A stretch of 64,000 bases of DNA, taken from assembly GCA_964016885.1 (NCBI GenBank), contig OZ024746.1, forward strand, positions 79,484,001 through 79,548,000, written 5' to 3'. The position numbers were made by a program, and so were the translations under genes. Below, in pieces: positions 21 to 62,374 of this stretch. Below the pieces are notes generated by a model. The model ran no database searches. It was given only the letters and a program-made list of their open reading frames with translations, and was not told the origin of the DNA. This DNA is from Eledone cirrhosa. Taxonomy: Eukaryota. Within the stretch, counting starts at the first letter, position 1, and each line of letters starts with the position of its first letter.

Positions 21-280
21 GCATACAGGTACACATACATATATGTACGCATCAGTTTAGCGGACGCTTATTATAGCACCCGCTTTGTTCGTTTGTAAAC
101 AAACTGAACAGCCTGAATTTATGCCGCACGGTGTTAAGGCAACCACGTCACCTTTTTGTTCAACACTGACACAGGAATGATGTACTAGTTTCAAGCTTGT
201 TAGCTATCATCAGCACCGTATACCCATCTGCCAGATAGTTGAACGTTCGAAAGTATATACTTTCGATATATCACTCGTTT
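21..280 (-). mobile_element. Diverged non-coding HHR-bearing element related to the 467-bp unit at 50965-52630
   Basis: Flanked by (TA)-rich arrays. Aligns by eye with 51040-51250, e.g. gacacaggaatgatgtactagtttc..tcatcagcaccgtatacccatctgccag vs gacaaggaatattgaactagtttc..tcatcagcaatatttacctatcttccgg. Confidence 0.7.
179..217 (-). ncRNA. Minimal type I hammerhead ribozyme motif
   Basis: Minus strand reads GGTG CTGATGA tAGCT aaca AGCTt GAAAC TA GTA CATC. It has the core, a 4-bp stem I, stem II and a palindromic stem III (ACTAGT). There is a U-U at the base of stem II. Confidence 0.8.
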
Positions 281-716: not shown

Positions 717-720
<4 letters not shown>

Positions 721-1265
721 ATAATAATATATTTGAAGACTAAAATCCAAAGAGGGTTCGATAAGGATAAATATATATCAAATATATAAGAACCCTAGAG
801 CAATTCTTTGCTTAAACTTTAATCTGTTATTTTAATAAATATATATATATACGGGGTAATAAATAATAGTTAAATGCAGTCCACTTAGGTATAGTCCAGT
901 TATGGTATTCCAGGTAGTGGATGATATTAACGCTTGGCTTGGTTTGACTCAACAAGGCGTTTTCATAGTGATGCTGCGGGTATGCTGTAATTCCTATGTT
1001 GTAAACACTTGGAGTAATAATAAATCAGGAAAGAAGGTTGACATGGTTTGCTATACAAAAAAGGTTTTTAATCTCATAGCTGACAATTGTTTCTCTGAAC
1101 TGGTAGGTCTAGAGATCGCTATTCGCTTGTTTTCACGTTACTCGATCGAGTAACGTGAAAATAAGCGAATAGCGATCTCTAGACCTACCAGTTCAGAGAA
1201 ACAATTGTCAGCTATGAGATTAAAAACCTTTTTTGTATAGCAAACCATGTCAACCTTCTTTCCTG

Positions 1266-1270
<5 letters not shown>
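717..1270. mobile_element. (TA)n-flanked fold-back element with a 250-bp terminal palindrome (Penelope pLTR-like)
   Basis: 1021-1145 is the reverse complement of 1146-1270 with no spacer and one mismatch seen. Each arm carries GAAAC AATT GTC (1198-1209), an HHR 3' half. (TA)n lies on both sides. Confidence 0.7.
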
Positions 1271-1319
<49 letters not shown>

Positions 1320-3074: not shown

Positions 3075-3611
3075 CCATACATACATGCATGCATACATAC
3101 ATACGTACGTACGTACATACATACATACATACATACATACATACATACATACATACATACATACATACATACATGCATACATACATACGTACCTACGTAC
3201 GCACATACATTCGTACGATTCACAGAAGAAACGATTGCAGCAAGGAACGACGAAGATTTCCTTTTCTTTGTAATCTTACCTCCGCGAACTTGACCGTTCA
3301 AAAGTAAACTCAAAATTGAAAGGGACAATACATACATGCTCACCTCCTCCCCACTCACACATACATACACACGTGCACACAGAGACACACACACAAACAT
3401 ATATATATAAGTTTGTGTATATGTGCGTGTGTGTTTGTTATGTGTGTATGCATGAGTGCGTATCACATAATGTAATATAATTGTTTCTACTTTTGGCACA
3501 AGGCCAGCAAATTCCCAGTGCATTACTGGTACTTTATTTCATCCACCCCGTAAGGATGAAAGGCAAAGTTAACCTCGGCGGGATTTGAACTCAGAATGGC
3601 AAGGGCCGTAA
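3075..3611 (+). repeat. Copy 1 of a local duplication ((TACA)n + unique sequence + SINE part)
   Basis: 3185-3611 closely matches 6470-6900 with scattered substitutions. Confidence 0.9.
3477..3611 (-). mobile_element. tRNA-derived SINE family A (Meta-domain-like), truncated
   Basis: Reverse complement of the 32316-32508 copy: B box gagttcaaatcc, central tttcatccttacggggt..aaataaagtaccag. Confidence 0.85.
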
Positions 3612-6456: not shown

Positions 6457-6765
6457 CATACATACATACGTACGTACATACCTACGTACGCTCATACATT
6501 CGTACGATTCACAGAAGAAACGATTGCAGCAAGGGACGACGAAGATTTCCTTTTCTTTGTAATCTTACCTCCGCGAACTTGACCGTTCAAAAGTAAACTC
6601 AAAATTGAAAGGGACAATACATACATGCTCACCTCTTCCCCACTCACACATACATACACACGTGCACATAGAGACACACACACAAACATATATATATATA
6701 AGTTTGTGTATATGTGTGTGTGTTTATTATGTGTGTATGCATGTGTGAGTATCACATAATGTAAT

Positions 6766-6956
6766 ATAATTGTTTCTACTTTTGGCACAAGGCCAGCAAT
6801 TACCCAGTGCATTACTGGTACTTTATTTTATCCACCCAGTAAGGTTGAAAAGCAAAGTTAACCTGGGCGGGATTTGAACTCAGATCATAAAGGACCGTAA
6901 CTCTATGCTGTAAAGCATGGCGTCCGACCATCTACCGATACTGGCAATCCACCGCA
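6766..6956 (-). mobile_element. SINE family A, near full length
   Basis: Reverse complement of the family A pattern, including the A/B box region. Confidence 0.88.
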
Positions 6957-7493
6957 GTAAAATAAAAATAATAACAAACACTTGGTCCTTCCGAATGACA
7001 ATCCACATGACTTCTTCTGTAGTTGTTTTAGTTATAAACTAAGAAGAAACAAATGTAAAGTTTGCTGTAAATGAATAATGTAATTGTTTACAGGAGAAAT
7101 TGATCTCGAAGAAGCAAACTAATGAACCCCGATTTAAATGATCAGTACTGCCGTTATTTGAACCATTGGAATTGATGTTTCAGTCAAAGGAAGCTACAGT
7201 ACTTATGATCTTTTATGTGGACTCGGAAACTGAATAGAACATGGGAAGAAATTATCTTGTCAGTAGAATACTTGTAATAGTATGTACTCAGTTAACGGCC
7301 CTGAATGTTCAGGTGATAATGGTAAACACAGCAATAGGATTAAGTCTACAGTCCCCACCCTTCTCCAAAAAACAGGATCGATCTTTCCGACAGACTTCCA
7401 TACGGTTTCCGATGACAAGATTTCGCTCACAGCATCAATATCATAACAATTATTATCGTTTATATGCTAAATTAGCGGAATTATAAACAAGAG

Positions 7494-10846: not shown

Positions 10847-11225
10847 GGTTCTTTTTTCCAAATACCACTTTGGAAGAAGAATCAGGATGGAGAGAGAGGT
10901 GCTGCACCCCAGCAAGTTTTATGAAAGGTGGGTGAAAGTGGCGAGAATGGCCCGAGTGAATGGGCCTTCTCTCTATATCAGCCTGTAGGTTGAGGAAAAG
11001 GAGGAGAAGAGGAAAGGAGTACAAACTCTTCGTACTCCTGGAGTTGAGGGTTGCACATTTTTTCGGGGGTATGTGTTACCCATATGAACTGTCTCCCCCT
11101 ATTGGGGAAAATCGACTAACTTTTAAATTGCATTTGTGATAACATTTTACACGTTTTTATTGTATGTAAACTTCCCCCTTTGTATTTGTCCCCATCTTTT
11201 GTGCCCCTGTGGCTAATAAAGAAAC
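10847..11225 (+). mobile_element. 3' end of a Tx1-like LINE relative within (TATC)n
   Basis: RIRMEREVL..ERWVKVARMARVNGPSL* matches the C-terminus of ORF 44597-48016. Shares the 3' UTR hairpin tccccctattgggga and the end gtggctaataaagaaa. Confidence 0.92.
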
Positions 11226-11226
11226 A

Positions 11227-11293
<67 letters not shown>

Positions 11294-11373
11294 GTATCTA
11301 TATATATATATCTATTTATCTATCTATCTATCTACCTATCTATCTATCTAACTATCTAACTATCTATCTATCT

Positions 11374-11618
11374 GCGCTCTTCCAATTCCTTTGGAAGAAA
11401 TGGGCTCCTTTGGTGAGAAGATCCATCTGCTGCCAATACCCTTCAAACAGAGGGCTAGGGTTGCCGTGGCTGGCGATGCGCAAACACGCGCTCAGGCTGC
11501 GGCACCTCCACGTATTCCTCACCGGACAACCTTCCCACAACTCGTCTCGCTGACCGAGCTGCAGTCCTGGGTCAAGCAAAGCCCGAGGAAAATGGGCGAC
11601 TGGCACATCGAATGTTTG
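11374..11618 (+). mobile_element. Internal ORF2 fragment of the Tx1-like family
   Basis: LFQFLWK..VRRSICCQ.P..GLG.PWL.MR.HALRLRHLH and FPQLVSLTELQSWVK match ORF2 around 47060-47330. The 5' junction is in (TATC)n. Confidence 0.92.
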
Positions 11619-14013: not shown

Positions 14014-14015
<2 letters not shown>

Positions 14016-14207
14016 CGAAGGAGGTGTGGTAAGGAACCAGATGGACCATAACGCATCAGAGTATTCAATCCTTAGGGTAGTAGAGTGGGTAATAGGAAAA
14101 TGTTTAACCCCGACGGCAGAGCTCAAGCCGTTTAGACGGCTATTTCTGGACTGTCCAGAAATAGCTGTCGAAACGGCTTGAGCTCTGCCGTCGGAGTCAC
14201 ACATTTT

Positions 14208-14210
<3 letters not shown>
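14014..14210. mobile_element. ~200-bp hairpin-ended element in (TA)n, family H copy 1
   Basis: Palindrome 14093-14211 centred on 14152. Homologous to 14469-14645 and 52808-53013. Confidence 0.85.
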
Positions 14211-14469: not shown

Positions 14470-14642
14470 ATAAAGAAGGTGTGGTAAGATACCAGGTGGA
14501 CCATAACGCACCAGAGTACTCGATACTTAGGGTGGTAGAGTGAGTAATAGGAAAAGAATCAGGACCCCGACGGCTGAGCTCCGAATACAGATCTAGCTGT
14601 TGAAACGGCCCGGAGCTCACCCTTCGAAGTCCTAACTCTTTT

Positions 14643-14645
<3 letters not shown>
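14469..14645. mobile_element. Family H copy 2 (degenerate hairpin)
   Basis: Same unique arm (gtgtggtaag..gtggaccataacgcaccagagtact..) and an imperfect terminal inverted repeat. (TA)n on both sides. Confidence 0.8.
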
Positions 14646-15207
<562 letters not shown>

Positions 15208-16166: not shown

Positions 16167-16335
16167 ATGATTTCTACTATAGACAAAGGGTCAGGAATAT
16201 TGGGAAGGGGAATGTCGATTAAATCGACCCCACTGCATTACTGGTACTTTATTTTATCGACCCCGTAAGGATGAAAGGCAAAGCTAACCTTGGCGGGATT
16301 TGAACACAGATCATAAAAGGCCGTAACTCTATACT
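16167..16335 (-). mobile_element. SINE family A
   Basis: ctggtactttattttatcgaccccgtaaggatgaaaggcaaag..ggcgggatttgaac. Confidence 0.85.
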
Positions 16336-17547
16336 GCCTGCGAATCACGATAGAAATAATATTCATGAATTAACTATATTACAACTCATTCAAATTATGA
16401 AATATACACTTCATATCACCGATTGTATTTTTGTTTATTTATAACTACTCTTCAGCCTCAACTTTCAACACTGCCTTTCATCTTTTCTAGGTCGATAAAT
16501 ATAGTACCAGTCATATACTTTATTTCTTACATTCCATCTGGGAGAAATCGAGTGTATTTAAGTGTTCATTCCTGGAGCGAGATGGATTCCACTATGTTCA
16601 AAATGCCGAAGACACGTCCTATGCCTGTATTCCTTTTCTTGCAAACCCACAAATAATCACGATACTGCCCATTAATTCACCCATAATTCATGCTTTTACT
16701 AATGAATTTAACTACTACATTACAAAAAATGCAACAATTCATTACTCAAGATTCACTATCCACGAATTTACCCACGATTTTCTCTAATAATTTTATCCAT
16801 GAGTTTATCCACAATTCTTCATTTTACTTGTAAATTTACTCACTCATTGACAACAATGCAATATACACCTTCATTTTACGTACAAATAACTTTACACACA
16901 ATTCACGATTTTATTAATGAATTTACTTTATCAATAAATTTACCAACGATGCTCCCAGCCATGTTACCCACGATCTATGATGTTAACTATTGAATTATCC
17001 ACAATTTGTACATATTATTAGCAACAATGTTATGCTTCTTCATTATTTTATTCACAATCAACTACTTTACCCACAATTACTCACTACTCAGAATTTACCC
17101 ATAAATATTTCACCCCTAATTTGACCCTACCCACAAATTTACCCAGTAGGGACGATATTCACTTTTGAATTTTCCGAACACGTGCAACTGCACTTATTCA
17201 GTTCAGTGTTTCATTATTTGGCATTGTCTGTATTTTTTTTTTTTTTTTTTTTGCCTGGTAGATGGAAACAAAATGTTCCTTTTTCACATTTTTATTATTA
17301 GAACATATTTAGTAGCTAAGCAAGGGAGTTGCAATAGATTTACTGAAGTAAAATAGATGCCCAGATATAAGGTGACGATGGTGATATTCGGAGATGCACA
17401 TGAGTACGAACGTAGGAATATTTGAATTTAACTGATAAAATATAATGGATTCAAAGACAATTTGAGCTTGTGCGCGCGGAAATGTGATACCTGATAACCG
17501 CGATTTGTCATAGGTCGCATAAATATATTATAAAGATATCACCATCA

Positions 17548-27073: not shown

Positions 27074-27075
<2 letters not shown>

Positions 27076-27455
27076 ACAAGTAAATATTTTTATAACTGAT
27101 ATAAAGCACTCGACAAGTATTTGGAGTAGATATACGATATTAATAAATGGAAAGTATATTTATAAAACCATATTTATTTCATTATACATATTTCAGGGAT
27201 ACCAAATTAAATTATGGTATGCCTTCATCAGACAAAATACAATATATAACAGTTTTACAAATAAGCTTTGACGTACTCTTTTAAAATGCAATCATTATTT
27301 TGGGAAGCCAAAGGGTACGTCAAAGCTTATTTGTAAAACTGTTATATATTGTATTTTGTCTGATGAAGGCACACCATAATTTAATTTGGTATCCCTGAAA
27401 TATGTATAATGAAATAAATATGGTTTTATAAATAGACTTTCCATTTATTAATATC

Positions 27456-27460
<5 letters not shown>
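27074..27460. mobile_element. Head-to-head inverted element in (TA)n with an HHR-like core in each arm
   Basis: Arms 27131-27280 and 27311-27460 with a 30-bp spacer. CTGATGA AGG..CCT GAAA TATGTA at 27360-27406 (+) and 27185-27231 (-). Stem I is poor. Confidence 0.78.
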
Positions 27461-29860: not shown

Positions 29861-30116
29861 CAATTCACCACTTTGTTTCTAATTTGTATTAAATGCTTTA
29901 TTATACGTAGCTTACAGTCGTGAGGTTGTGAGTTCGATATCTGGGCCAAGCATGCCTCCTGCCCTTGAGCAAGATTTTTATTTCATGTTGTGACCAATAA
30001 ACAGTATCAGCAACTGGAAATAGCAATGGAAACATTGTTTCGAAGACTGGGATCTTCTCGATTCCGATCAATATTAATCAATAAAAAATATACAATGTGT
30101 TCGGCATAAATATTAT

Positions 30117-30300
30117 TATTTGGCAGTATCGGTAGAGGGTCGGACGCCATGCTTTGCAGCACAGTTACATCCCTTTACGGACTCAGTTCAAATCCCGCCG
30201 AGGTTAACTTTGTCTTTCATCCTTACGGGGTCGATAAAATAAAGTACCAGTAATGCACTGGAATAATTGCTGGCCTTGTGCCAAATGTAGAAACAATTAT
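30117..30300 (+). mobile_element. SINE family A
   Basis: tggcagtatcggtag (A box), gttcaaatcc (B box) and the central domain. Confidence 0.88.
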
Positions 30301-30714
30301 TTAATTATGTAAGTTAGCAAACGAAACTCCGTCATACTAATTACACTGACCACTTCCGTTATGCACTAAATTCTGCTTGACATAACTAATTATGCTAGAA
30401 AGATCATCCTGTAGGCAGAACCATAAAGGTAGCTATCATATTATCTGATAAAGAGAAAACCATCTCTAACATGCTTAAAGATTATTTTTTTTCCTTGGTA
30501 TAGAGTGAAGAGGGGAAAGTGTGTTCAGACTTCCTTATTTTCACAGTGAGACTTCTAATTAAGAAAAATAAAACTATAGTTATATTGACATTAAATTTCT
30601 CTTAAATCTACTAATTATACGCTTTGTCCTGCATAACGTATAATTAGTTAATTAGTTACGTTGCCACACATATATATATCTAAATATATATATATATATA
30701 CATATAAATATGTG

Positions 30715-31804: not shown

Positions 31805-32315
31805 TGGCGGAAACGTGAACCGACAGATCTTATGGAAAGGGAAAAGATTATCATCTCATGATATTTCAATAATTTCCCAGACCGTCAGAGAAAAAGAGAG
31901 TGAGAAGGAAAGAACGAAGAAGGGAGAAAGAAAGAAGGAGAGGGAGCAGCGAGATGAGTGATAGAGAAAGGGAGAAGTGAGAAAGAGAGAAGTGAGACTT
32001 AAACAATAACAGCAGCCACGACAACAACATTAATAGCTATTAGTATATGTCTTTATTTCTCCAGAAACGGGTGAGAATGGGGTGAGTATGTTGGAATAGA
32101 GACAGAGAGAAAGTGAGAGGGTGAGAAATAGAAGAAGAGAGGGGGTAAAGATGGAAAGAGAGAGGAGGAGAGATAGAAAAAAAGTGGTGAGGTGAATGAG
32201 CGAAGAGAAAGAATGAAAGTACGACAGATGTGGACGAAATTGTCTTAAAGAAGAACAACGACCTCAACATCAGCAACAATAAAACATTAATGATTATTAT
32301 ATTATTTCTGTATAG

Positions 32316-32508
32316 GGCGGTGTATTGGCAGTATCGGTAGAGGGTCAGACGCCATGCTTCGCAGCATAGAGTTACGGTCCTTTATGGTATGAGTTCAAAT
32401 CTCGCCGAGGTTAACTTTAGCTTTAATCCTTACGGCGTCGATGAAATAAAGTACCAGTAATGCACTGGAATAATTACTGGCCTTGTGCCAAAAGTAGAAA
32501 CAATTATA
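32316..32508 (+). mobile_element. SINE family A, full length
   Basis: ggcggtgtattggcagtatcggtag..gagttcaaatc..gtaccagtaatgcactgg..gccttgtgccaaaagtagaaacaattat. Confidence 0.9.
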
Positions 32509-32819
32509 TTATTTCTGTATTGGGCAGATTTGTTGCATTACAAAGAGCGACATAAAAGACAGTCGACCGTTATATCGACGAAACAGAAACGAAAAGAAAA
32601 GTTTTAACAGCAGATAATATTAACTGTAATGAAATAAGTGCATGATGATTTTCAAAAATACCTTCAATAAAAAGCTTTAATTCTTTTCTCATATAAAGTA
32701 GCACTTTTCAAACAAACATACGTCCCCCACATACACACATCTCTCTCTCTCTATCTCTCTCTCTATCAATCTATCTTTATATATTTGTATGTATATATAT
32801 ATATATGTGTGTGTGTATG

Positions 32820-42470: not shown

Positions 42471-44561
42471 ATGGCTACGAAAAAGAAATTTCATACGTCA
42501 CTCCCACTCATTCCGTCTTCTTCTTCCTCAATCATCACTACAGCAGAGAGAAGATTGTCTCTCTCCCTCCCTTCTTTAAATGTGTCTCTCTCCCTCCCTT
42601 CTCTTTCGCAAGTGACGAAAGAAAAGAAAAGTCTCGTGCAAAGCGTGCAAGGTTTCTCCACGACGACGACAGCGACGAAACAGGTGTGCGGGAAATACGA
42701 AAACCCAGTTCATTCGTCTGACGTCAGGAATAATAGCAGTAGCAGCCGTAATAACAACAGCAACAGTGACAATGAAAACAACAGTAGCAGCCGCAACAGC
42801 ATCACCAGCAGCATAAACAACAACAGCATTAGCAGCAGCAACACCAACAACAACCACAGCAACAGCGGCGGAGGCAGTAGTCGTAGTACCTGCAGCAACA
42901 ACAAAAGTACCAGCAGCTCTGACGACAACAACAACAGCAGAGAAAAACCAATCTCATTTGCAGGTATTGCGAAAAACTTGGAAACAATCCTCATAACAAA
43001 TGAGGAATTAGAGGAAGCGAAGAAGATGGTGACAAAGAACGGACACCGAGCAATCTGCAAGGCAGCGGAAAAATTTTTCAAAACCCAAGAGCACTGTACG
43101 GTCACGTACCGTACAGTAAGTACAAAATCCCGTAGGGTGGAAAGAGCCACAGAGGCCCAAATACAAAAAGCCTTGGGGTCTGTGTGGCAGCGGAAAACGC
43201 ACATCACCCGAGGCAAAAAATATGCCACCGTAGACGTACTTTTTGCCACACCCCAGGAGGCAAAGGCCCAATCAGTAGTGACCCTAAGGAGCGAGGAAAT
43301 GGTGTTGGTGCCCTCCTACTGCGGGCAAAAAATTGTGAGGGTCAAACTGACCCACGTCCCACCCGGAATGACCCCTTCTTGGCTGGCCGCGTCTGTCCTC
43401 GTTGAAATCGAGGACAAAACAACTGTACTGCAAGTACAGAAAAAAGTAAGAGAAGATTGGGTCGGCTCCTCCATTGAGATGCTAATCCAAACCAACCAGG
43501 AGTGCATCGAAGCTATCCCGGATGTGATAGACTTCGATAACGGCATTCAACTGCCCATAAGTGTTGAGGGCAAACGCCCGAAATGCTTTCGCTGTGGATC
43601 GAAGACTCACCTCAGGGCCTTCTGCAACGAGAAGACCCTGAGAAAGGAGAAAACCCCCCTCCTTCCGAATCCGGCTCCACGGCTACCGGCAACAGGACAA
43701 GCGGCAACCAGGAACGATAGGTCCGTGGCACCCATACCCACTCCACGGAAATCAAAAACAGCAGCAGCAGTGGAAATATTAACAACAACAACAGCAATAC
43801 CAAATGCAGCTGCAACAGAGACTCCAGTGCAAACATCACCAACAACAAGTGAAAGAGTGGAGCTGGTACCCCTCCCCGACCTCACAGAATCAGACATGGA
43901 GTGTGAGGTGGGAGAGGGATGGCAAAAGGTCGTAAGAAGGCACAAACGCAGAAGCAGCGCATCGTCGCCTTTGAAAAGGGAGGAAAGAAATGAGAAAAGG
44001 GTAAAGTCTACTGCAAAGAGACCCACAGCAGCAACAACACCAACACCATCACCACCCACACTAGCGCCACCATCACCACCGGCGACAACCCCACCGCCAA
44101 CAACACCTTCAACACCACCACCACAAGCACCAACATTGCAAACACAACAACAAAACACACACACCCAGCAACAACGACAAGAAAATAGCAGAACCACACC
44201 CCACCCCCAGAAAAACAAATGCACGGCAATAAATACACACAACAAGAAACTAATGACTTACATAATTGAACACACAGACATTTCACAACAGGACTACATA
44301 ATACCAGCACCAATCAAAACGCCAACTAACATAAGACTGCTAAAAATAGCACAGAAACAATACACAAATATTAAAACGAAATTCCCCAACGCAGTTGGTG
44401 ATTTCAGGGACCTAGGAGGAACCATCAATCGAAGAGTATACTCAGACATTCTCTTAGAAGAGCCGACGACCAGCCGAAGGGACGATTCAACGGTCCCTTC
44501 ACCAGACGATCAAGTGAAAAGGGATGTAAAAACCATCCCTCCTCTACCAAAAGTACGGTAA
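42471..44561 (+). CDS. LINE ORF1p, nucleic-acid-binding protein with a CCHC zinc knuckle
   Basis: 696-aa ORF with CFRCGSKTHLRAFC and low-complexity S/N and P/T tracts. The true start codon is uncertain. Confidence 0.88.
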   Translation: MATKKKFHTSLPLIPSSSSSIITTAERRLSLSLPSLNVSLSLPSLSQVTKEKKSLVQSVQGFSTTTTATKQVCGKYENPVHSSDVRNNSSSSRNNNSNSDNENNSSSRNSITSSINNNSISSSNTNNNHSNSGGGSSRSTCSNNKSTSSSDDNNNSREKPISFAGIAKNLETILITNEELEEAKKMVTKNGHRAICKAAEKFFKTQEHCTVTYRTVSTKSRRVERATEAQIQKALGSVWQRKTHITRGKKYATVDVLFATPQEAKAQSVVTLRSEEMVLVPSYCGQKIVRVKLTHVPPGMTPSWLAASVLVEIEDKTTVLQVQKKVREDWVGSSIEMLIQTNQECIEAIPDVIDFDNGIQLPISVEGKRPKCFRCGSKTHLRAFCNEKTLRKEKTPLLPNPAPRLPATGQAATRNDRSVAPIPTPRKSKTAAAVEILTTTTAIPNAAATETPVQTSPTTSERVELVPLPDLTESDMECEVGEGWQKVVRRHKRRSSASSPLKREERNEKRVKSTAKRPTAATTPTPSPPTLAPPSPPATTPPPTTPSTPPPQAPTLQTQQQNTHTQQQRQENSRTTPHPQKNKCTAINTHNKKLMTYIIEHTDISQQDYIIPAPIKTPTNIRLLKIAQKQYTNIKTKFPNAVGDFRDLGGTINRRVYSDILLEEPTTSRRDDSTVPSPDDQVKRDVKTIPPLPKVR

Positions 44562-44596
44562 GTGGTCTTTCCCATCTTTTCCACTCTATTTTAAAC

Positions 44597-47500
44597 ATGA
44601 CCTCACTCAGAATAGGCAGCATAAATGCGCGTGGCTTGGGGTCGTCATGGAAGCAGGGTCACCTGCTCAACGACCTCAGGTCACTAAACATAGATGTAGT
44701 GGCCATCAGCGAGACCAGAATCTCCGAAGCACGGGCCTTCGCACCGATCTTCGGCGGCTACGATGTGTACGCATCTCCCAGCCGTCCTGGATCGGGTGGA
44801 GGAGTTGCTGTGCTTTTTCGGAGAGGTTTGGATCTCGCCATACGGGCCATCTTCCTGGACCCAGAGGGTAAGCTGGTGGTGCTGGACGTGACCAGCGGAG
44901 ACGGGCAAGCTTTCAGGCTAGTGGCCGTCTATGCCCCGACAGGAGCAGGGCGGCCTGATTTCTTCCGGCGTCTGGAGACCTTTCTTGGAACGTCCCGCTC
45001 TTTAGTGTTAGTGGGCGACTGGAACGGGATCTTAGATGCACGCTGGGACTGTGTGGGATTAGCGGATAGGGGTGGAGGGTGCAAGAGCCTCACCAACCTG
45101 CTCAGGCGTTTTGAACTGTCTGACAGGTACCGATTGGATTTCCCGAATGTGCCAATGTGGACTTGGACAAACCGCATAGGGTCATCCAGATCATATCTAG
45201 ATAGAGTATTTTGTAGGGAAATAGATAGGTCTAGCATAGGCTGTCCACAATTCAAGATAGTCAGCTACACGGACCACAAATTCGTGATCTGTGTGCTTGA
45301 CTTAGATAGGCTTCATAGACGAGGACCCGGCTACTGGAAGCTAAACGCGTCCTTACCAGCGCGCAAGGCCTACAGAGACCGGATTAGCGAACTAGTTAAG
45401 CGGGCGTTGACGGGGGCCATCGTCAACAACAAGTGGTGGTTTGCTCTGAAAAGAGCGATTAGAATAGAATCGATTAGGTTTAGTAAGGCTTTAGCAATAG
45501 AGAAAAATAGAGCAGAGGGAGAACTAGTTAGAAAATTAGACGAGGCGCTTAGCAAAGGCATTGCGACCGACGTGCTTGCGGCGAAATTGGTTCTTGACCA
45601 ATTCTTCAATGCAAAGCACGAAGGCTGCGTTGTCAGAGCTAGGGTGCGTGCTCTCAGACACGAGGGGACGAAAGCCGTTCAATGGGCCCGAGTAGCGGAG
45701 GCGCGTCGTGGCAACAAAGCCACGATCCGGTCTTTGGTGGACCACGACGGGCGCATGCTACTCGATCCCGGGCAAATGTGTGAAGCTTTTCAGCGACACT
45801 TCGCTCAGCTGTTCGGGGGCAGCGGGGGGCCGGGTAGAGGGATGGACTTTAGTGTCTACCTCGACGGACTGCCGCGGCTCTCGGCCACTGAGGCGAAGTG
45901 TTGCGAAAAGCCGATAACAGCCGCTGAAGTACGGGAGGCAATGACTGGCTGCACAAGGGGTAAATCGCCTGGTTTGGATGGTCTGCCCTATGAACTTTAC
46001 GTACAGATGCCAGACTTGTTCGGAGGCCTCTTGGCGGACGTCTACTGCAACTGGCAACAGAACGGGAGAATTCCCAGTTCTGTGAGCCGAGGAGCGGTGG
46101 CACTGCTGAGAAAGGATCCGAACAAGGGGGATAACATAGACAATTTCCGGCCCATAACTCTGCTAAACACAGAGTTTAAGATTTTGGCCAAGGTGCTAGC
46201 AAAGAGGTTGGCGCTTGTCGTTGGTGGTCTGGTGGGAGAGGCGCAGACATGCGCCATTCCCGACAGATCCATCCACGACAACCTCCACCTCATGCGATAC
46301 ATCGTAGAGAGGGTAGCTAGGGAACCTGGCACGGGTGGGTCCTTGATCAATTTAGATCAGTCGAAAGCTTTCGATAGGGTCGACCATCGTTACCTAGCGG
46401 CAGTCCTGAGGGCGGCTGGCTTTGGGCCCGTCTTCAGAGGCTGGATCGCTGCCATGCACAGCGACATCTGCTCTGTGGTGAGAGTGAACGGTCACCTGTC
46501 GGAACCGTTCAACATCATGCGCTCGGTCCGCCAAGGATGTCCCCTCTCGTCCCTCTTGTACGTATTGACTCTCGAGCCATTACTGCACAAACTGGAGACG
46601 TTGAGGGGAGTCCCGCGCGAACTAGGATGCGGAAGATCCGTGTCAGCATATGCGGACGATGTCACCGTAGTGGTGTCGAACGCCAAACACATCGAGGCGA
46701 TCGGCACTACACTAAGAGAATACGAAGCGGTGACAGGAGCAATGATCAACCAGGAAAAGTCAGTGGGCCTGCAGCTCGGCACCTGGAGAGGCAGGTCCAT
46801 GCCGTCCAACAGCGTCGTCGGGCGCTGGACGGACGGACCGGTTAAATTGCTAGGGGTCTGGTTCGGTCCGGACCTCCAGACGGACAAAAACTGGGACGAG
46901 GTGACGAGCAGGGTGGCTTCTCTCACCCAGAAATGGGCGGAGAGGAAGCTATCCCTGAAAGGTCGAGCGGAGGTGGCTAACGCGTACATCGCGTCTGTCA
47001 TCTGCTACCGCCTAACCGTCGTACCTTGTCCTAAGCCTCGCCTGACTGCGCTGGAGCGTTTGCTCTTTCGCTTTTTGTGGAAGGGACGTGCTCCGATGGT
47101 CAGGCGGTCCATCTGTTGTCAACACCCGCTACGTGGAGGGCTGGGCATGCCGTGGCTGATGATGCGCAGGCACGCGCTCAGGCTACGACATCTCCACCTC
47201 TTCCTCGACGGTGATCAGGTGTGGTCGCCGTTTGCTAGACGCGTTTTTCCCCAGCTCGTTTCCTTGACGGAGCTGCAGTCCTGGGTCAAGCGAAGACCGA
47301 GAGGGAGCGCCTGGAGACTGGAATGTCTTCAGGCGCTCACAGCCCTCGACCAATCGGGCAATGTGATCGGTGGAAACTCCACCTCGGCGTTCTATAGAGG
47401 ATTAGTGGAGGGGAAGAGCGACGACGTACTTGGGGAAACTCTAGGCGTCGACGAAAATCAACTAGCCAATCTCTTCGGAAGAACTTTCGGGCCGGGGCCT

Positions 47501-48016
47501 ATGGACAACTTCCAGAAATCTCTGGCCTGGCAGTGCTACCGAGGAGCCTTGCCAGTTCGGGATAAACTCTACAGGCATGGAGGTGCCGTCAGCCGGGCAT
47601 GTCCGAGATGCGCGCAGGGCGACGAAACCGTCCTGCACGCACTCGTCCAGTGTCCGAAAATTGCTGACTTGTGGGTTTATGTCGAACACCTGCTGTCGCG
47701 TTTAGGACGGATCCAGCTATCATCTGAGTCCATCGTGAGGATTGCCCCGCCCTCCTCCTTTAGCCGGGAAGGGCAGGCAGTTTTTATCTGTCTGGTGGCC
47801 ATGGCGAAAGAGATAGTATGGTGGACACGTTTGAAAGGGCTGAAGACGAGCACTTACCTCTTCGGTGATGCTCTGATTGACTTTTTCAAATTTCATTTGA
47901 AAAGGAAAATCAGAGTAGAGAGGGAAGTGCTCTCTTCCCAGCATTTTGTTGAAAGATGGGTGAGAGAAGCAAGAATGGCCCGAGTGAATGGGCCGACTCT
48001 GAGTATATATCTGTAA
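44597..48016 (+). CDS. LINE ORF2p: AP endonuclease + reverse transcriptase + C-terminal Zn finger
   Basis: SINARGL, SET, VYAP, GDWN, YLDR, TDH; KSPGLDG, FRPITLLN, DQSKAFDRV, RQGCPLS, YADD; CPRC..ETVLH....C. Confidence 0.97.
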   Translation: MTSLRIGSINARGLGSSWKQGHLLNDLRSLNIDVVAISETRISEARAFAPIFGGYDVYASPSRPGSGGGVAVLFRRGLDLAIRAIFLDPEGKLVVLDVTSGDGQAFRLVAVYAPTGAGRPDFFRRLETFLGTSRSLVLVGDWNGILDARWDCVGLADRGGGCKSLTNLLRRFELSDRYRLDFPNVPMWTWTNRIGSSRSYLDRVFCREIDRSSIGCPQFKIVSYTDHKFVICVLDLDRLHRRGPGYWKLNASLPARKAYRDRISELVKRALTGAIVNNKWWFALKRAIRIESIRFSKALAIEKNRAEGELVRKLDEALSKGIATDVLAAKLVLDQFFNAKHEGCVVRARVRALRHEGTKAVQWARVAEARRGNKATIRSLVDHDGRMLLDPGQMCEAFQRHFAQLFGGSGGPGRGMDFSVYLDGLPRLSATEAKCCEKPITAAEVREAMTGCTRGKSPGLDGLPYELYVQMPDLFGGLLADVYCNWQQNGRIPSSVSRGAVALLRKDPNKGDNIDNFRPITLLNTEFKILAKVLAKRLALVVGGLVGEAQTCAIPDRSIHDNLHLMRYIVERVAREPGTGGSLINLDQSKAFDRVDHRYLAAVLRAAGFGPVFRGWIAAMHSDICSVVRVNGHLSEPFNIMRSVRQGCPLSSLLYVLTLEPLLHKLETLRGVPRELGCGRSVSAYADDVTVVVSNAKHIEAIGTTLREYEAVTGAMINQEKSVGLQLGTWRGRSMPSNSVVGRWTDGPVKLLGVWFGPDLQTDKNWDEVTSRVASLTQKWAERKLSLKGRAEVANAYIASVICYRLTVVPCPKPRLTALERLLFRFLWKGRAPMVRRSICCQHPLRGGLGMPWLMMRRHALRLRHLHLFLDGDQVWSPFARRVFPQLVSLTELQSWVKRRPRGSAWRLECLQALTALDQSGNVIGGNSTSAFYRGLVEGKSDDVLGETLGVDENQLANLFGRTFGPGPMDNFQKSLAWQCYRGALPVRDKLYRHGGAVSRACPRCAQGDETVLHALVQCPKIADLWVYVEHLLSRLGRIQLSSESIVRIAPPSSFSREGQAVFICLVAMAKEIVWWTRLKGLKTSTYLFGDALIDFFKFHLKRKIRVEREVLSSQHFVERWVREARMARVNGPTLSIYL

Positions 48017-50920: not shown

Positions 50921-50968
<48 letters not shown>

Positions 50969-51190
50969 AATTAAGTTAAAGATGTACATCCATATATGTA
51001 TACTGAAATACTAGTATGTATATGAATACACACACGTATACATATGTAGATGTACCAAGTTTTTTCACTGGTCACTTTACTGTGAGTGGCCAGCTATTCT
51101 GTATGTAAACACACAGACAAACCGGTTTTTAGAGTCATACTGGTTTTTGAGGAAACACCTTTCCTCTATTCTCCAGAAAGCCAGACAAGG

Positions 51191-51235
51191 AATATTGAAC
51201 TAGTTTCGTTGTTGTTACAACTCATCAGCAATATT
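51191..51235 (-). ncRNA. Minimal type I hammerhead ribozyme
   Basis: Reverse complement of 51826-51870. Confidence 0.9.
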
Positions 51236-51825
51236 TACCTATCTTCCGGCCTCTCTAGAGAATCGTAAAAGCACATATCGTTATATGCTTTTTCTATGAA
51301 AATTAGTAGTGGGCAGACTAATTTGCATAGAGTGTGAGTAAGTACCGGTTCAACGGAGACGATAAAAACAAATAACGAAACGAAATTAAATTTCGTTTCA
51401 TTTGTAACTCACTTTTGTATGACTGACGCTTAAACAATTAAGTTAAAGATGTACATCCATATATGTATACTGAAATACTAGTATGTATATGAATACACAC
51501 ACGTATACATATGTAGATGTACCAAGTTTTTTCACTGGTCACTTTACTGTGAGTGGCCAGCTATTCTGTATGTAAACACACAGACAAACCGGTTTTTAGA
51601 GTCATACTGGTTTTTGAGGAAACACCTTTCCTCTATTCTCCAGAAAGCCAGACAAGGAATATTGAACTAGTTTAATTTCGTTTCGTTATTTGTTTTTATC
51701 GTCTCCGTTGAACCGGTACTTACTCACACTCTATGCAAATTAGTCTGCCCACTACTAATTTTCATAGAAAAAGCATATAACGATATGTGCTTTTACGATT
51801 CTCTAGAGAGGCCGGAAGATAGGTA

Positions 51826-51870
51826 AATATTGCTGATGAGTTGTAACAACAACGAAACTAGTTCAATATT
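51826..51870 (+). ncRNA. Minimal type I hammerhead ribozyme
   Basis: AATATTG CTGATGA GTTGT aaca ACAAC GAAAC TA GTT CAATATT. Perfect 7-bp stem I, 5-bp stem II and palindromic stem III. Predicted cleavage after 51863. Confidence 0.92.
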
Positions 51871-52292
51871 CCTTGTCTGGCTTTCTGGAGAATAGAGGAA
51901 AGGTGTTTCCTCAAAAACCAGTATGACTCTAAAAACCGGTTTGTCTGTGTGTTTACATACAGAATAGCTGGCCACTCACAGTAAAGTGACCAGTGAAAAA
52001 ACTTGGTACATCTACATATGTATACGTGTGTGTATTCATATACATACTAGTATTTCAGTATACATATATGGATGTACATCTTTAACTTAATTGTTTAAGC
52101 GTCAGTCATACAAAAGTGAGTTACAAATGAAACGAAATTTAATTTCGTTTCGTTATTTGTTTTTATCGTCTCCGTTGAACCGGTACTTACTCACACTCTA
52201 TGCAAATTAGTCTGCCCACTACTAATTTTCATAGAAAAAGCATATAACGATATGTGCTTTTACGATTCTCTAGAGAGGCCGGAAGATAGGTA

Positions 52293-52337
52293 AATATTGC
52301 TGATGAGTTGTAACAACAACGAAACTAGTTCAATATT
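52293..52337 (+). ncRNA. Minimal type I hammerhead ribozyme (next tandem copy)
   Basis: Same motif 467 bp downstream. Confidence 0.92.
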
Positions 52338-52626
52338 CCTTGTCTGGCTTTCTGGAGAATAGAGGAAAGGTGTTTCCTCAAAAACCAGTATGACTCTAAA
52401 AACCGGTTTGTCTGTGTGTTTACATACAGAATAGCTGGCCACTCACAGTAAAGTGACCAGTGAAAAAACTTGGTACATCTACATATGTATACGTGTGTGT
52501 ATTCATATACATACTAGTATTTCAGTATACATATATGGATGTACATCTTTAACTTAATTGTTTAAGCGTCAGTCATACAAAAGTGAGTTACAAATGAAAC
52601 GAAATTTAATTTCGTTTCGTTATTTG

Positions 52627-52665
<39 letters not shown>

Positions 52666-52807: not shown

Positions 52808-52810
<3 letters not shown>

Positions 52811-53013
52811 AACGAGTAGGACCCCGACGGCTGAGCTCAAGCCGTTTCGACGGCTAATTCTGGACTAAAATTTTAGTCCAGAATTAGCCGTCGAAACGGC
52901 TTCAGCTCAACCGTCGGGGTCCTACTCGTTCCTATTACACACTCTACTACCCTAAGTATTGAGTACTTTGGTGCGTTATGGTCCACCTGGTTCCTTACTA
53001 CATTTCCTTCTTT
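52808..53013. mobile_element. Family H copy 3 (opposite orientation)
   Basis: Palindrome 52807-52934 centred on 52870/52871. The long arm is homologous to the reverse complement of 14014-14100. Confidence 0.87.
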
Positions 53014-55145: not shown

Positions 55146-55325
55146 AGAGTTGCTTCTACTATAGGCACAATGCCAGCACTTTTGAGGGAGGGGAAAGTCA
55201 ATGATATCGACACCAGTGTGTGACTGGTACTTTAATTTATCGACCCCATAAGGATGAAAGGCAAAGCTAAACACGGCGGGATTGGAACCTAGAATGTAAA
55301 GGGCCGTAACTCTATGCCGCGAAGT
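55146..55325 (-). mobile_element. SINE family A
   Basis: gactggtactttaatttatcgaccccataaggatgaaaggcaaag..ggcgggattggaac. Confidence 0.85.
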
Positions 55326-55466
55326 ATGTATGTATGATGAACGTACGGATGTATGTATGTATGTAAGTATATATGCACACACATTTTATATATATGTATA
55401 TATATATATATGTATGTATACCTGTATATATATGCGCGTATATATATATATATATATATATATATA

Positions 55467-56405: not shown

Positions 56406-56446
56406 ATATATTTATGTATGTATAGATAGATAGATAGATGCTATAA

Positions 56447-56627
56447 TAATTTTTTCTACATTTGGCACAAGGCCAGCAAATACTCAGTACATTACTGGTA
56501 CTTTATTTTATGGACCCCCGTAAGGATGAAAGGCAAAGTTAACCTCGGCGGGATTTGAACTCAGATCGTAAAGGGACGTAACTATGCTGGAAAGCATGGC
56601 GTCCGACCCTCTACCAATACTGCCAAT
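56447..56627 (-). mobile_element. SINE family A
   Basis: Reverse complement of the 30117-30300 pattern. Confidence 0.88.
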
Positions 56628-56773
56628 AATGTTTATAGATAGATGCTATAAACGTAGAACCCTGTACACTTTGACTATAAATGTTTCATATTTTTCGTAG
56701 CCTGAGAATTTAACCTCGTAATCGTAATCTGTTCCTTAATGTTTCAAGTCACACACACACACACACATATACT

Positions 56774-60041: not shown

Positions 60042-60194
60042 GTGTGTGCAAGCAGCCAATTTGATTTTCTTATTGTATACAAGCATACATATATAAATTA
60101 AATAGTGAACGATCTACCTACTTACACACTTACACATACACACATACATGTCTATTTAGACACATCCATATATATATATATATATGGATGTGTC

Positions 60195-60239
<45 letters not shown>

Positions 60240-60273
60240 AGATTTGAATGGATACAGTTTAGTTGAAAGGAAT

Positions 60274-60390
60274 TTATTGACACGTGTTTCTATAACAGTT
60301 ACATAACCTAAAACAGCTATCTACAAACTTTTAGTTATGCAGACATTCAATATTTCAATGTTATTGTTTACTGTCATTTCATCAGAATAA
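60274..60390 (-). ncRNA. Hammerhead ribozyme motif in the inverted pLTR
   Basis: Reverse complement of 62050-62166. Confidence 0.75.
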
Positions 60391-60570
60391 TATTACTGAG
60401 GACCTATTTAGTTTTTATAGAGAATATTAGGAGGAAGGGGTGAAGTTGTTAGAAGAATAGTTGAAGGAGTGGTTTTTCGATAGCAGTGAGAATTCTTGGT
60501 GGCAGTGATTAATTAGATTCCCATCTGTTGTTTTGACATTTTTTATAGAATATATTATTGGTTATTTTTC

Positions 60571-61095
60571 AAAAAAACAGTAGACAATACACTACAGAAC
60601 ATAAATAAACCACACCTAAGTTCGTCCGCAATACTACTCCAGAGAAAACCCAACGTACACAACTGTAACTGCACCTATCCTGACAACTGCCCCCTCGGCA
60701 ATAACTGCCTGGAAAAAAATATTATTTATAAGTGTACCATTAAATCCGGAGGCAACGAGTGGTATTACGTGGGATCAACGGCAACATCGTTTAAATCTCG
60801 ATTGTATAGGCATTCTTACTCAATAAAACACCAGAGCCAAAGAAATGTAACAACTTTAGCAGAAAAAGCTTGGACGCTCAGGGATAGCAATCAAAAGTTT
60901 ACCCTAAAATGGGAAAAATTAGCTAAAACCCAGAGCTTTTCCAGGAGCCAAAATTTCTGCAAATTGTGCAATCTTGAGATTTATTACATAATCACACACA
61001 AGAAGAAACTGCTGAATAACAGAATTGAACGAACATTATTCTGCCGTCACAGAACTAAAACCCTTTTTTCCCACTACAAGCAGAATATTACATAA
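60571..61095 (+). pseudogene. Penelope (Neptune-type) Zn-finger linker + GIY-YIG endonuclease, 5'-truncated but open
   Basis: CNC..CPLGNNC..NIIY..YVGST..FKSR...H..W..CKLCNLE..LLNNR.E....CRH. Confidence 0.9.
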
Positions 61096-61364
61096 AAGAG
61101 GGACATCCCCCAACTATATAAACCTTAATCTAGTTAGAAAAATATAAAAACAATCTCTTCTCAACATATATTAATAACCTTAAATTACCATACTAATAAT
61201 GAAAAGATATGCTGATGAGAATAGGTACAAATATGCGATAATGAATGTGTCTAAAAACGTCCATAAGTATGTATATATATGTGAAAATGTATATAAATAA
61301 GTAAATATATATATATGTTTGATGTGTATAGTTAGATGTAAGTGTATTCATGTATTAAAGTGCT

Positions 61365-61401
<37 letters not shown>

Positions 61402-61424
61402 ATATGTGTGTATATATGTATGTG

Positions 61425-61457
<33 letters not shown>

Positions 61458-62049
61458 GTATATGTATATATGTATATATATATATGTGTATGTATGTATG
61501 TGTATATGGATGTGTATGTATGTGTATGTGTGTACACATGGACTAGAGTATGTATGTATATATGTGTGTGTCTATACGTGTGTATATATAAAGATAAGTT
61601 GAGTATGAAAATGTATACACATGAGCGCGTATGTATGTACATGAATACATGTGTGTATATATATGTGTATGCATGTGTATATATATGTAAGTATGAATAT
61701 GTGAATTGTGAGTATATGTATTTTGTAGAGGTGTGCAAATATATTTGTGTGTGAATGCGTGGGTGAAAGAATACGTACACTTGAAAGAAAAATTTAAGTC
61801 TGAATGTTAAGTGCAAACACAAAACCAACCACGCATATCTTTACTATCTCTAATCCTTCTATAGATTTAGAAAAATAACCAATAATATATTCTATAAAAA
61901 ATGTCAAAACAACAGATGGGAATCTAATTAATCACTGCCACCAAGAATTCTCACTGCTATCGAAAAACCACTCCTTCAACTATTCTTCTAACAACTTCAC
62001 CCCTTCCTCCTAATATTCTCTATAAAAACTAAATAGGTCCTCAGTAATA

Positions 62050-62166
62050 TTATTCTGATGAAATGACAGTAAACAATAACATTGAAATATTGAATGTCTG
62101 CATAACTAAAAGTTTGTAGATAGCTGTTTTAGGTTATGTAACTGTTATAGAAACACGTGTCAATAA
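62050..62166 (+). ncRNA. Hammerhead ribozyme motif with long stem II
   Basis: TTATT CTGATGA aATGACAGT..ACTGTTATa GAAAC ACGT GTC AATAA, with an A-A at the base of stem II. Confidence 0.77.
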
Positions 62167-62313
62167 ATTCCTTTCAACTAAACTGTATCCATTCAAATCT
62201 TTCTATTTTTCTCCGGATTACTTTTGGAACTACAACTGGAACCGTCGAGCAAACTCTACGTGAGCTGATAATCTACTGTGTGTAATATTTATATTACAAC
62301 ACAACGGAAAAAA

Positions 62314-62374
<61 letters not shown>

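What the first reader, a model, noticed from the sequence alone, without database searches (positions are those of the whole stretch)
60235..62317. Penelope element with the same geometry: candidate mobiliser of the (TA)n fold-back elements
Seen: an open GIY-YIG C-terminus, a seemingly exact 336-bp inverted pLTR piece at the 5' end, an HHR in both copies, and both sense 3' ends joining (TA)n at a TA. The same layout recurs at 717, 14014, 14469, 14689, 27074, 50965 and 52808. Established: PLEs often carry an inverted 5' pLTR. Inference: one mechanism (cleavage in self-complementary (TA)n with priming from both ends) serves several non-autonomous ribozyme RNA families.
Basis: partly seen in the sequence, partly recalled or inferred. 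Interest (0 to 1): 0.82.

Follow-up and report, generated by a model that had tools for sequence, protein, structure and literature searches.

The report
Two-ended Penelope retrotransposon insertion in (TA)n
This is a recently inserted, shortened copy of a known kind of jumping gene, and its many copies suggest it writes itself into TA repeats from both DNA strands at once, a habit shared by a small ribozyme RNA that probably borrows such an enzyme.

Summary
60235-62318 is a young, 5'-truncated Hydra-clade Penelope-like element (PLE-A); an intact 773-aa copy exists elsewhere in the genome. It sits in (TA)n with an exact 336-bp inverted arm. The two 3' ends differ: one stops at a fixed 'short' site (S), the other 113 nt further on ('tail', T). 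Genome-wide there are 1,398 exact S ends and 1,187 T ends; control TA sites gave 1 and 0. All 50 paired ends were S+T. In 8 of 23 complete insertions the S arm holds sequence the T arm lacks, so it is not a fold-back copy. Best model: both target strands prime reverse transcription at two fixed RNA sites. Only the 467-nt unit is a retrozyme. It shows the same S+T signature (27 of 29 pairs), which supports PLE mobilisation, but nothing ties it to PLE-A. PLE-A's hammerhead has a plausible core and a poor helix I. The architecture is already described; the counts and the retrozyme signature were not found in my searches.

The parts
60168..60236 (.). left (TA)n flank
60235..60570 (-). PLE-A inverted arm ending at the fixed short site S; exact copy of 61870-62205
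   Evidence: 1,398 exact S-(TA)n junctions genome-wide
60342..60385 (-). hammerhead-like motif, inverted copy
60570..61095 (+). 5'-truncated ORF end (about aa 600-773): CxCX5C linker, GIY-YIG (VYG-like YVG), CxxC, CxH, stop
61096..61869 (+). 3' UTR with element-internal TA/TG simple repeats
   Evidence: matches intact copy L031 at 99.3% over 1,750 bp together with ORF end and pLTR
61870..62205 (+). pLTR up to the short site S (TA at 62204-62205)
62055..62098 (+). hammerhead-like motif: core, helix II, helix III, GUC; helix I weak
   Evidence: no Rfam hit
62206..62318 (+). 113-nt tail ending at the fixed site T (TA at 62317-62318)
   Evidence: 1,187 T-(TA)n junctions
62317..62374 (.). right (TA)n flank
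50966..51673 (-). 467-nt retrozyme R1, inverted arm of 1.5 units ending at its S site; hammerhead at 51175-51246
51671..52631 (+). 467-nt retrozyme R1, sense arm of 2.1 units ending at its T site (68 nt beyond S); hammerheads at 51815-51886 and 52282-52353
852..1271 (.). S+T truncated insertion of a different coding Hydra PLE (PLE-C, tail 171 nt)
717..840 (.). separate small head-to-head insertion (family E); coding capacity not found
14015..14209 (.). S+T truncated insertion of coding Hydra PLE-B (tail 80 nt)
14470..14644 (.). older, decayed PLE-B insertion
52809..53012 (.). S+T truncated insertion of PLE-B
   Evidence: 5,874 exact PLE-B S ends
27074..27456 (.). truncated insertion of coding Hydra PLE-D; hammerhead in both arms; this copy's tail stops about 30 nt short of the family's usual T
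14690..15106 (+). older family F; 15106 is its S end, left end atypical; coding capacity untested

Best explanation
A young 5'-truncated insertion of an autonomous Hydra-clade Penelope-like element, made by asymmetric two-strand target-primed reverse transcription. SHOWN from genome sequence: insertions end at two fixed sites, S and T, each carrying TA(T) in the element; an insertion has one of each; the two arms are separate cDNAs from the same source lineage, cut short independently and joined head to head with short overlaps. INFERRED: the GIY-YIG nuclease nicks both strands of (TA)n, which reads the same on both strands; each freed 3' end pairs with UA in the RNA, one at S and one at T; two template copies are used (two RNAs, or a tandem or circular RNA); host end-joining links the cDNA ends. 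The 467-nt retrozyme is inserted by the same kind of machinery in trans, by a Hydra PLE not identified here. The other fold-backs are cis products of their own PLE families.
For: Intact 3,595-bp unit with a 773-aa ORF, all Hydra motifs, telomerase RTs as the four best fold matches. 1,398 S and 1,187 T junctions with (TA)n versus 1 and 0 at two other TA sites of the pLTR. About half of 2,746 copies of the S site end there. 50 of 50 inward-facing pairs are S+T, chance 7e-16. In 8 of 23 complete insertions the S arm runs further 5' than the T arm; arms overlap on the template in 20 of 23; short overlaps at the join in 19 of 23; own-arm identity at or above the median of other copies in 19 of 19. 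Arm lengths uncorrelated, rho 0.02, n=20. TA(T) homology at S and T in five families. Retrozyme: 27 of 29 pairs S+T, p 1.6e-7, variable inversion points, tandem units in both arms. Public contigs of two studies show (TA)n loose ends at S or T. PMC11167929 reports a PLE cutting and extending both strands and starting at two RNA sites that bound the tail.
Against: No biochemistry; the order of steps and the number of RNAs are inferred. 50 of 100 S ends and 37 of 87 T ends had no exact-pattern partner; only some were inspected (4 had a one-base variant partner; some arms appear to have no inverted partner). Exceptions exist: one retrozyme S+S insertion (L280), one T+T pair by coordinates, one of the 27 retrozyme S+T pairs is known to be false, and one S+S pair among the first 100 PLE-B S ends. 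In 3 of 23 PLE-A insertions and most PLE-B ones the arms end at the same inner point, which fold-back would also give. In vitro the anole PLE used the same start sites on both strands and no target homology. No empty site was found to prove the (TA)n predates the insert.
Confidence: 0.7

Rival explanations
1. Fold-back or self-priming: one cDNA (or an antisense RNA) folds on itself and is copied, giving the inverted arm, and the nuclease trims it at S. Proposed for head-to-head PLE repeats in PMC3846280.
For: Passages of PMC3846280. Palindromic centres in 3 of 23 PLE-A insertions and in most short PLE-B copies. Arms share variants.
Against: In 8 of 23 insertions the S arm holds up to about 2.6 kb that the T arm lacks, and the tail is never in the S arm; in 3 the T arm is shorter than the tail. 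Arm lengths are uncorrelated.
Confidence: 0.1
2. Twin priming on a single RNA, as in L1: the second target end primes internally at S on the same RNA molecule that T primes.
For: 3 of 23 T arms stop inside the tail (67, 73, 108 nt), as a collision on one RNA would predict. Arms come from the same source lineage.
Against: In 20 of 23 both arms copy the same template stretch, up to about 1.5 kb, which needs two template copies or strand displacement. A tandem transcript would blur this rival into the best explanation.
Confidence: 0.15
3. One reading: this PLE family is the mobiliser of the retrozyme and of the other fold-backs.
For: Same target and S+T geometry. Both are very young: 40 of 40 scored PLE-A pLTRs identical, top retrozyme units 99-100%.
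Against: Other fold-backs have their own ORFs. No 3' similarity. 0 of 124 mixed junctions. PLE-D is about as young. The one adjacent retrozyme/PLE-A locus reads as two insertions plus a deletion. PMC3846280 saw no cross-mobilisation between PLE types.
Confidence: 0.12
4. The retrozyme arrays spread by DNA-level recombination, or the (TA)n flanks are written by the RT itself rather than being targets.
For: bioRxiv 10.64898/2026.07.22.740005 discusses local tandem amplification. Long arrays occur. No empty site recovered.
Against: Dispersed copies with fixed S and T ends and variable inversion points. Some identical young PLE-A copies abut already degenerate TA tracts (3 of 24 flanks interrupted within 5 bases).
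Confidence: 0.08

Closest known systems
Hydra clade of C-terminal EN+ Penelope-like elements (PMC8557442; includes Hydra-1_Obim from Octopus, (TA)n preference)
   Same: Single ORF, RWK, DKT, CxCX5C, CxxC and CxH motifs, (TA)n insertion, partial tandems, inverted 5' copy, tail at one end.
   Different: Unit is 3.6 kb (described as generally under 3 kb); tail 113 nt rather than 30-40; hammerhead not canonical. Not aligned to the published sequences.
Poseidon element PAc of Anolis (PMC11167929)
   Same: Both strands cut and extended; two RNA start sites that bound the tail; AT-rich target.
   Different: PAc start sites lie inside the ORF, show no target homology and did not differ between strands in vitro. 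Here both sites lie upstream of the first Met, carry TA(T), and pair one per end.
Non-LTR retrozymes of animals (PMC7229834; bioRxiv 10.64898/2026.07.22.740005)
   Same: R1 is a 467-nt tandem unit with a type I hammerhead and no ORF; PLE mobilisation is already proposed.
   Different: Those papers argue from co-occurrence and pLTR homology; the word 'inverted' is absent from the first and I saw no junction analysis in the passages read. Here the junctions carry the PLE signature, and no pLTR homologue was found among fetched loci.
L1 twin priming (recalled, not read)
   Same: Second target strand primes cDNA, giving a 5' inversion joined by microhomology.
   Different: L1's second priming site is variable and its two parts do not overlap; here it is fixed, and the arms usually duplicate each other.

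Membership tests
Penelope-like element | telomerase-related RT in a single ORF | tested here: met
   773-aa ORF, YRDD at 352; four best Foldseek matches are TERTs, E about 1e-9
Penelope-like element | C-terminal GIY-YIG endonuclease | tested here: met
   Y652, Y665-G667, R676, E735, N748 conserved in 101 aligned proteins; Pfam gave no hit
Penelope-like element | partial tandems forming pLTRs, inverted 5' copy, tail at one end | tested here: met
Hydra clade | RWK present, GxKF/Y absent, DKG changed to DKT | tested here: met
   RWK 37, DKT 121, no GxKF/Y (definition)
Hydra clade | CxCX5C linker; CxxC and CxH around the E and N; no CX2-5CxxC | tested here: met
   631, 729, 757
Hydra clade | insertion into (TA)n | tested here: met
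   23 of 23 terminal copies among 30 loci
Hydra clade | canonical hammerhead in the pLTR | tested here: inconclusive
   core with helices II and III, 6 of 20,000 shuffles; helix I weak; no Rfam hit
Hydra clade | groups with published Hydra RTs in a tree | not tested
Non-LTR retrozyme (467-nt R1) | small tandem non-coding unit with a type I hammerhead in each copy | tested here: met
   period 467; Hammerhead_HH9 E 2.8e-7, below the gathering score
Non-LTR retrozyme (467-nt R1) | self-cleavage and circular RNA | not testable with these tools
   no RNA data examined for R1
Non-autonomous family (852, 14014, 14469, 27074, 52808) | no coding parent contiguous with the 3' end | tested here: not met
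   longer copies carry Hydra-type ORFs upstream in the same sense
MITE or fold-back DNA transposon | fixed internal structure with symmetric termini | tested here: not met
   inversion points vary between copies and the two ends are different sites

The most novel reading that the evidence does not exclude
Hydra PLEs integrate by an obligately asymmetric double TPRT: two RT activities, two template copies, one fixed start site per target strand, each set by TA pairing. This would explain the inverted pLTR and the one-sided tail in one step. The retrozyme would be a parasite that mimics this two-site layout without sequence homology, and its junctions would be direct genomic evidence that animal retrozymes are inserted by PLE enzymes.
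Probability: 0.45. Interest if true: 0.75.

Novelty: new member of a known kind. Interest (0 to 1): 0.52.

Why it matters
The element itself is an ordinary member of a described clade. Its value is as a test system. How PLEs make head-to-head repeats with a tail at one end is stated to be unresolved (PMC8557442, PMC11167929), and self-priming was the proposal in PMC3846280. Here over a thousand young copies give fixed start sites, a one-S-one-T rule and arms that cannot be fold-back copies. An intact ORF and a simple (TA)n target make the reaction easy to set up in vitro. The same signature on a retrozyme turns 'PLEs probably move retrozymes' into a junction-level, testable claim.

Tried and rejected
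(1) Pfam on the fragment and on the full protein: no family. (2) Rfam on the PLE-A pLTR: no hammerhead. (3) Hybrid retrozyme/PLE-A insertion at L104/L095: segment order fits two neighbouring insertions and a deletion; rejected as evidence. (4) Mixed-family junctions: 0 of 124. (5) Retrozyme homology to PLE 3' regions: none apart from adjacent retrozyme inserts and simple repeats; only about 10 families were sampled. (6) PLE-B arms differing at one site in 11 of 17 loci looked like two source RNAs, but the variant is rare and equally common in both arms (95 S, 93 T, against 5,874 G-type S ends and 112 other variants), so it is query selection plus mutation; rejected. (7) Apparent T+T pairs in family F were S+T once read. 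(8) Empty-site search among 70 complete insertions found none usable. (9) Expression: no RNA holder listed. (10) Homodimer prediction for residues 1-490: no verdict, not evidence either way. (11) Earlier scan notes: nothing. (12) Literature searches for the one-S-one-T rule or for retrozyme junctions of this form found no such report. The library lacks most subscription papers, including early Penelope work, and supplements of PMC11167929 and of the bioRxiv preprint were not seen, so absence from print is not established. (13) The partner ends of most unpaired S and T ends were not read.

Full report
Observation. The window is G000:C6:79484001-79548000 of a 3.0-Gb animal genome; I did not identify the host. 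Positions 60237-60570 are an exact reverse complement of 61870-62203, 336 bp with the terminal TA. Between them lie an open reading-frame end, a simple-repeat-rich 3' UTR and a pLTR. Both sense 3' ends join (TA)n. They are not the same end: the inverted arm stops at the TA at 62204 (site S), the sense arm at the TA at 62317 (site T), 113 nt further on.

What it is. The pLTR matched 40 of 40 scored candidates at 100% (490 candidates). Of 30 loci, 23 end in (TA)n and 7 continue into a tandem unit. L031 holds a 3,595-bp unit with a 785-codon open frame, 773 aa from the first Met. The protein has RWK, DKT, YRDD, CxCX5C, YVG, CxxC and CxH and lacks GxKF/Y and CX2-5CxxC. These are the Hydra-clade features in section 11 of PMC8557442, whose supplement lists an Octopus Hydra family with (TA)n preference. 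259 homologues were found, the best at 35-40% identity. The model (mean pLDDT 89.9) matches telomerase RTs best. Pfam gave nothing. No tree against published Hydra sequences was made.

Hammerhead. CUGAUGA at 62055, GAAA at 62084 and GUC at 62096-62098 close a 4-bp helix II and a short helix III. Such a core arises in 6 of 20,000 shuffles, and it sits 149 nt before S, near the 97-103 nt seen in PLE-B and -D. Variants listed in public contigs around it fall in loop II, not the core. Helix I is poor and Rfam is negative. I call it hammerhead-derived, activity unknown. PLE hammerheads with helix I as short as 2 bp are described (PMC4209133 passages).

Two fixed ends. Exact S-(TA)n junctions number 1,398 and T-(TA)n junctions 1,187 (135 of the window's own variant). 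Two other TA-bearing pLTR sites gave 1 and 0. About half of 2,746 copies of the S site terminate there. Using the first 100 S ends and the 87 T ends over the same part of C1, all 50 inward-facing pairs within 15 kb were S+T (7e-16 under random pairing). The other 50 S and 37 T ends had no exact-pattern partner. Four of those seen in short loci had a one-base variant partner; most were not read. Contigs of public runs from two studies show (TA)n loose ends at S or T, so the junctions are not peculiar to this assembly.

Arms are separate cDNAs. I analysed 23 complete insertions: the first 20 of the 50 pairs, plus the window, L031 and L035. The S arm runs further 5' than the T arm in 8, ends at the same point in 3, and the T arm is shorter than the tail in 3. 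Arms overlap on the template in 20. Joins show short overlaps in 19 (1-10 nt, one 27; measured from BLAST ends, so rough), 1-2 inserted bases in 2 and longer fill in 2. Each arm resembles its partner at least as much as the median other copy in 19 of 19. Lengths are uncorrelated. Fold-back copying, proposed in PMC3846280 (passages), cannot make the 8. At S and T the element itself reads TA(T) in all five families checked, which suggests primer-template pairing.

The other loci. 14014, 14469 and 52808 belong to PLE-B: 6 of 30 loci continue upstream, into a 3' UTR and, in L137/L224, a Hydra ORF; 5,874 exact S ends exist. 852-1271 is PLE-C, 53% identical to PLE-A in protein. 27074 is PLE-D, with the ORF about 1.7 kb upstream in two loci. 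717-840 is a separate small insertion. 14689-15106 is an older family whose fixed end is 15106; two other copies are S+T with a 30-40-nt tail. S-T distances are 113, 80, 171, 92 and 68 nt for A, B, C, D and R1. Family 3' ends share no detectable sequence.

The retrozyme. The 467-nt unit has a Rfam HH9 match (E 2.8e-7, under the gathering score). With a related family of about 446 nt, a shared motif occurs 25,071 times. Its insertions have S and T ends in (TA)n, tandem units in both arms and variable inversion points. Forward-strand counts are 731 S and 1,187 T (reverse counts are inflated by repeat matches). On C1 up to 82 Mb, 41 S and 68 T ends gave 29 pairs: 27 S+T, 1 S+S, 1 T+T; one S+T pair is false and the S+S is real. 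This is the PLE signature on an RNA with no ORF. PMC7229834 (passages) and the 2026 preprint (first part, passages, Discussion) already propose PLE mobilisation from co-occurrence and pLTR homology. Which PLE does it is open: no mixed junction in 124, at least 10 endonuclease families in the sample, and PLE-D is about as young as PLE-A.

Mechanism. Shown: fixed S and T, one of each per paired insertion, independent arms, same source lineage, TA homology. Inferred: nicks on both strands of (TA)n; each 3' end primes on RNA, one at S and one at T; two template copies; end-joining of the truncated cDNAs; tandem arms from multimeric or circular RNA. PMC11167929 (parts 1-2 of 4) shows two-strand extension and two start sites for a Poseidon element, but without target homology or strand asymmetry. 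A dimer is not established here.

Verdict. The inverted 5' copy, the one-sided tail and (TA)n targeting are described in PMC8557442 (passages), so the element is a new member of a known clade. What adds value is the one-S-one-T rule, the exclusion of fold-back in 8 of 23 insertions, and the same rule on a retrozyme. My searches did not find these, within a library that lacks most subscription papers. L1 twin priming is recalled, not read. Interest 0.52.

Noticed in passing
window 51730-51737 and 52197-52204 (each R1 unit); L185, L060, L172: Both retrozyme families (about 68% identical over part of the unit) conserve ATGCAAAT, the octamer motif, about 100 nt before the hammerhead core. An snRNA-type promoter in newt satellite 2 is recalled, not confirmed.
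   Followed up: partly
L137:1445-1550: PLE-B hammerhead has long helices I and III and a GUC site, but its core reads CUGAGA(A/G), one base short of CUGANGA. Most PLE-B copies truncate about 60 nt upstream of S, in the helix II loop.
   Followed up: partly
window 60151-60202: Tiny fold-back with 13-bp arms around (AT)n just left of the element; the arm resembles an 11-nt stretch of the PLE-A 3' UTR.
   Followed up: partly
window 48-264: Partial copy of the second retrozyme family R2 on the minus strand.
   Followed up: no
L232: An R1 insertion whose two ends join (CAT)n instead of (TA)n.
   Followed up: no
L031:800-1920: A different PLE end (YIGET-type endonuclease, canonical-looking hammerhead core) upstream of the intact PLE-A copy; L221 holds a long ORF of another PLE type.
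   Followed up: no
window 61866-61870; L035: The window's S arm and both arms of L035 stop at the same pLTR position, a possible RNA 5' end or pause site.
   Followed up: no
G000:C1:5738085-5752751: A 14.6-kb R1 array of about 30 tandem units bounded by an S end and a T end, suggesting long rolling-circle copying or later expansion.
   Followed up: no
window 3450-3611, 6739-6973, 16172-16337, 30106-30311, 32300-32519, 55151-55328, 56445-56636: Several copies of a dispersed 150-210-bp repeat family, 80-90% alike, probably a SINE.
   Followed up: no
window 43001-48000: GC-rich block (50-57%) in an AT-rich window, with diverged partial copies at 10854-11587; possibly a long retroelement or gene.
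   Followed up: no
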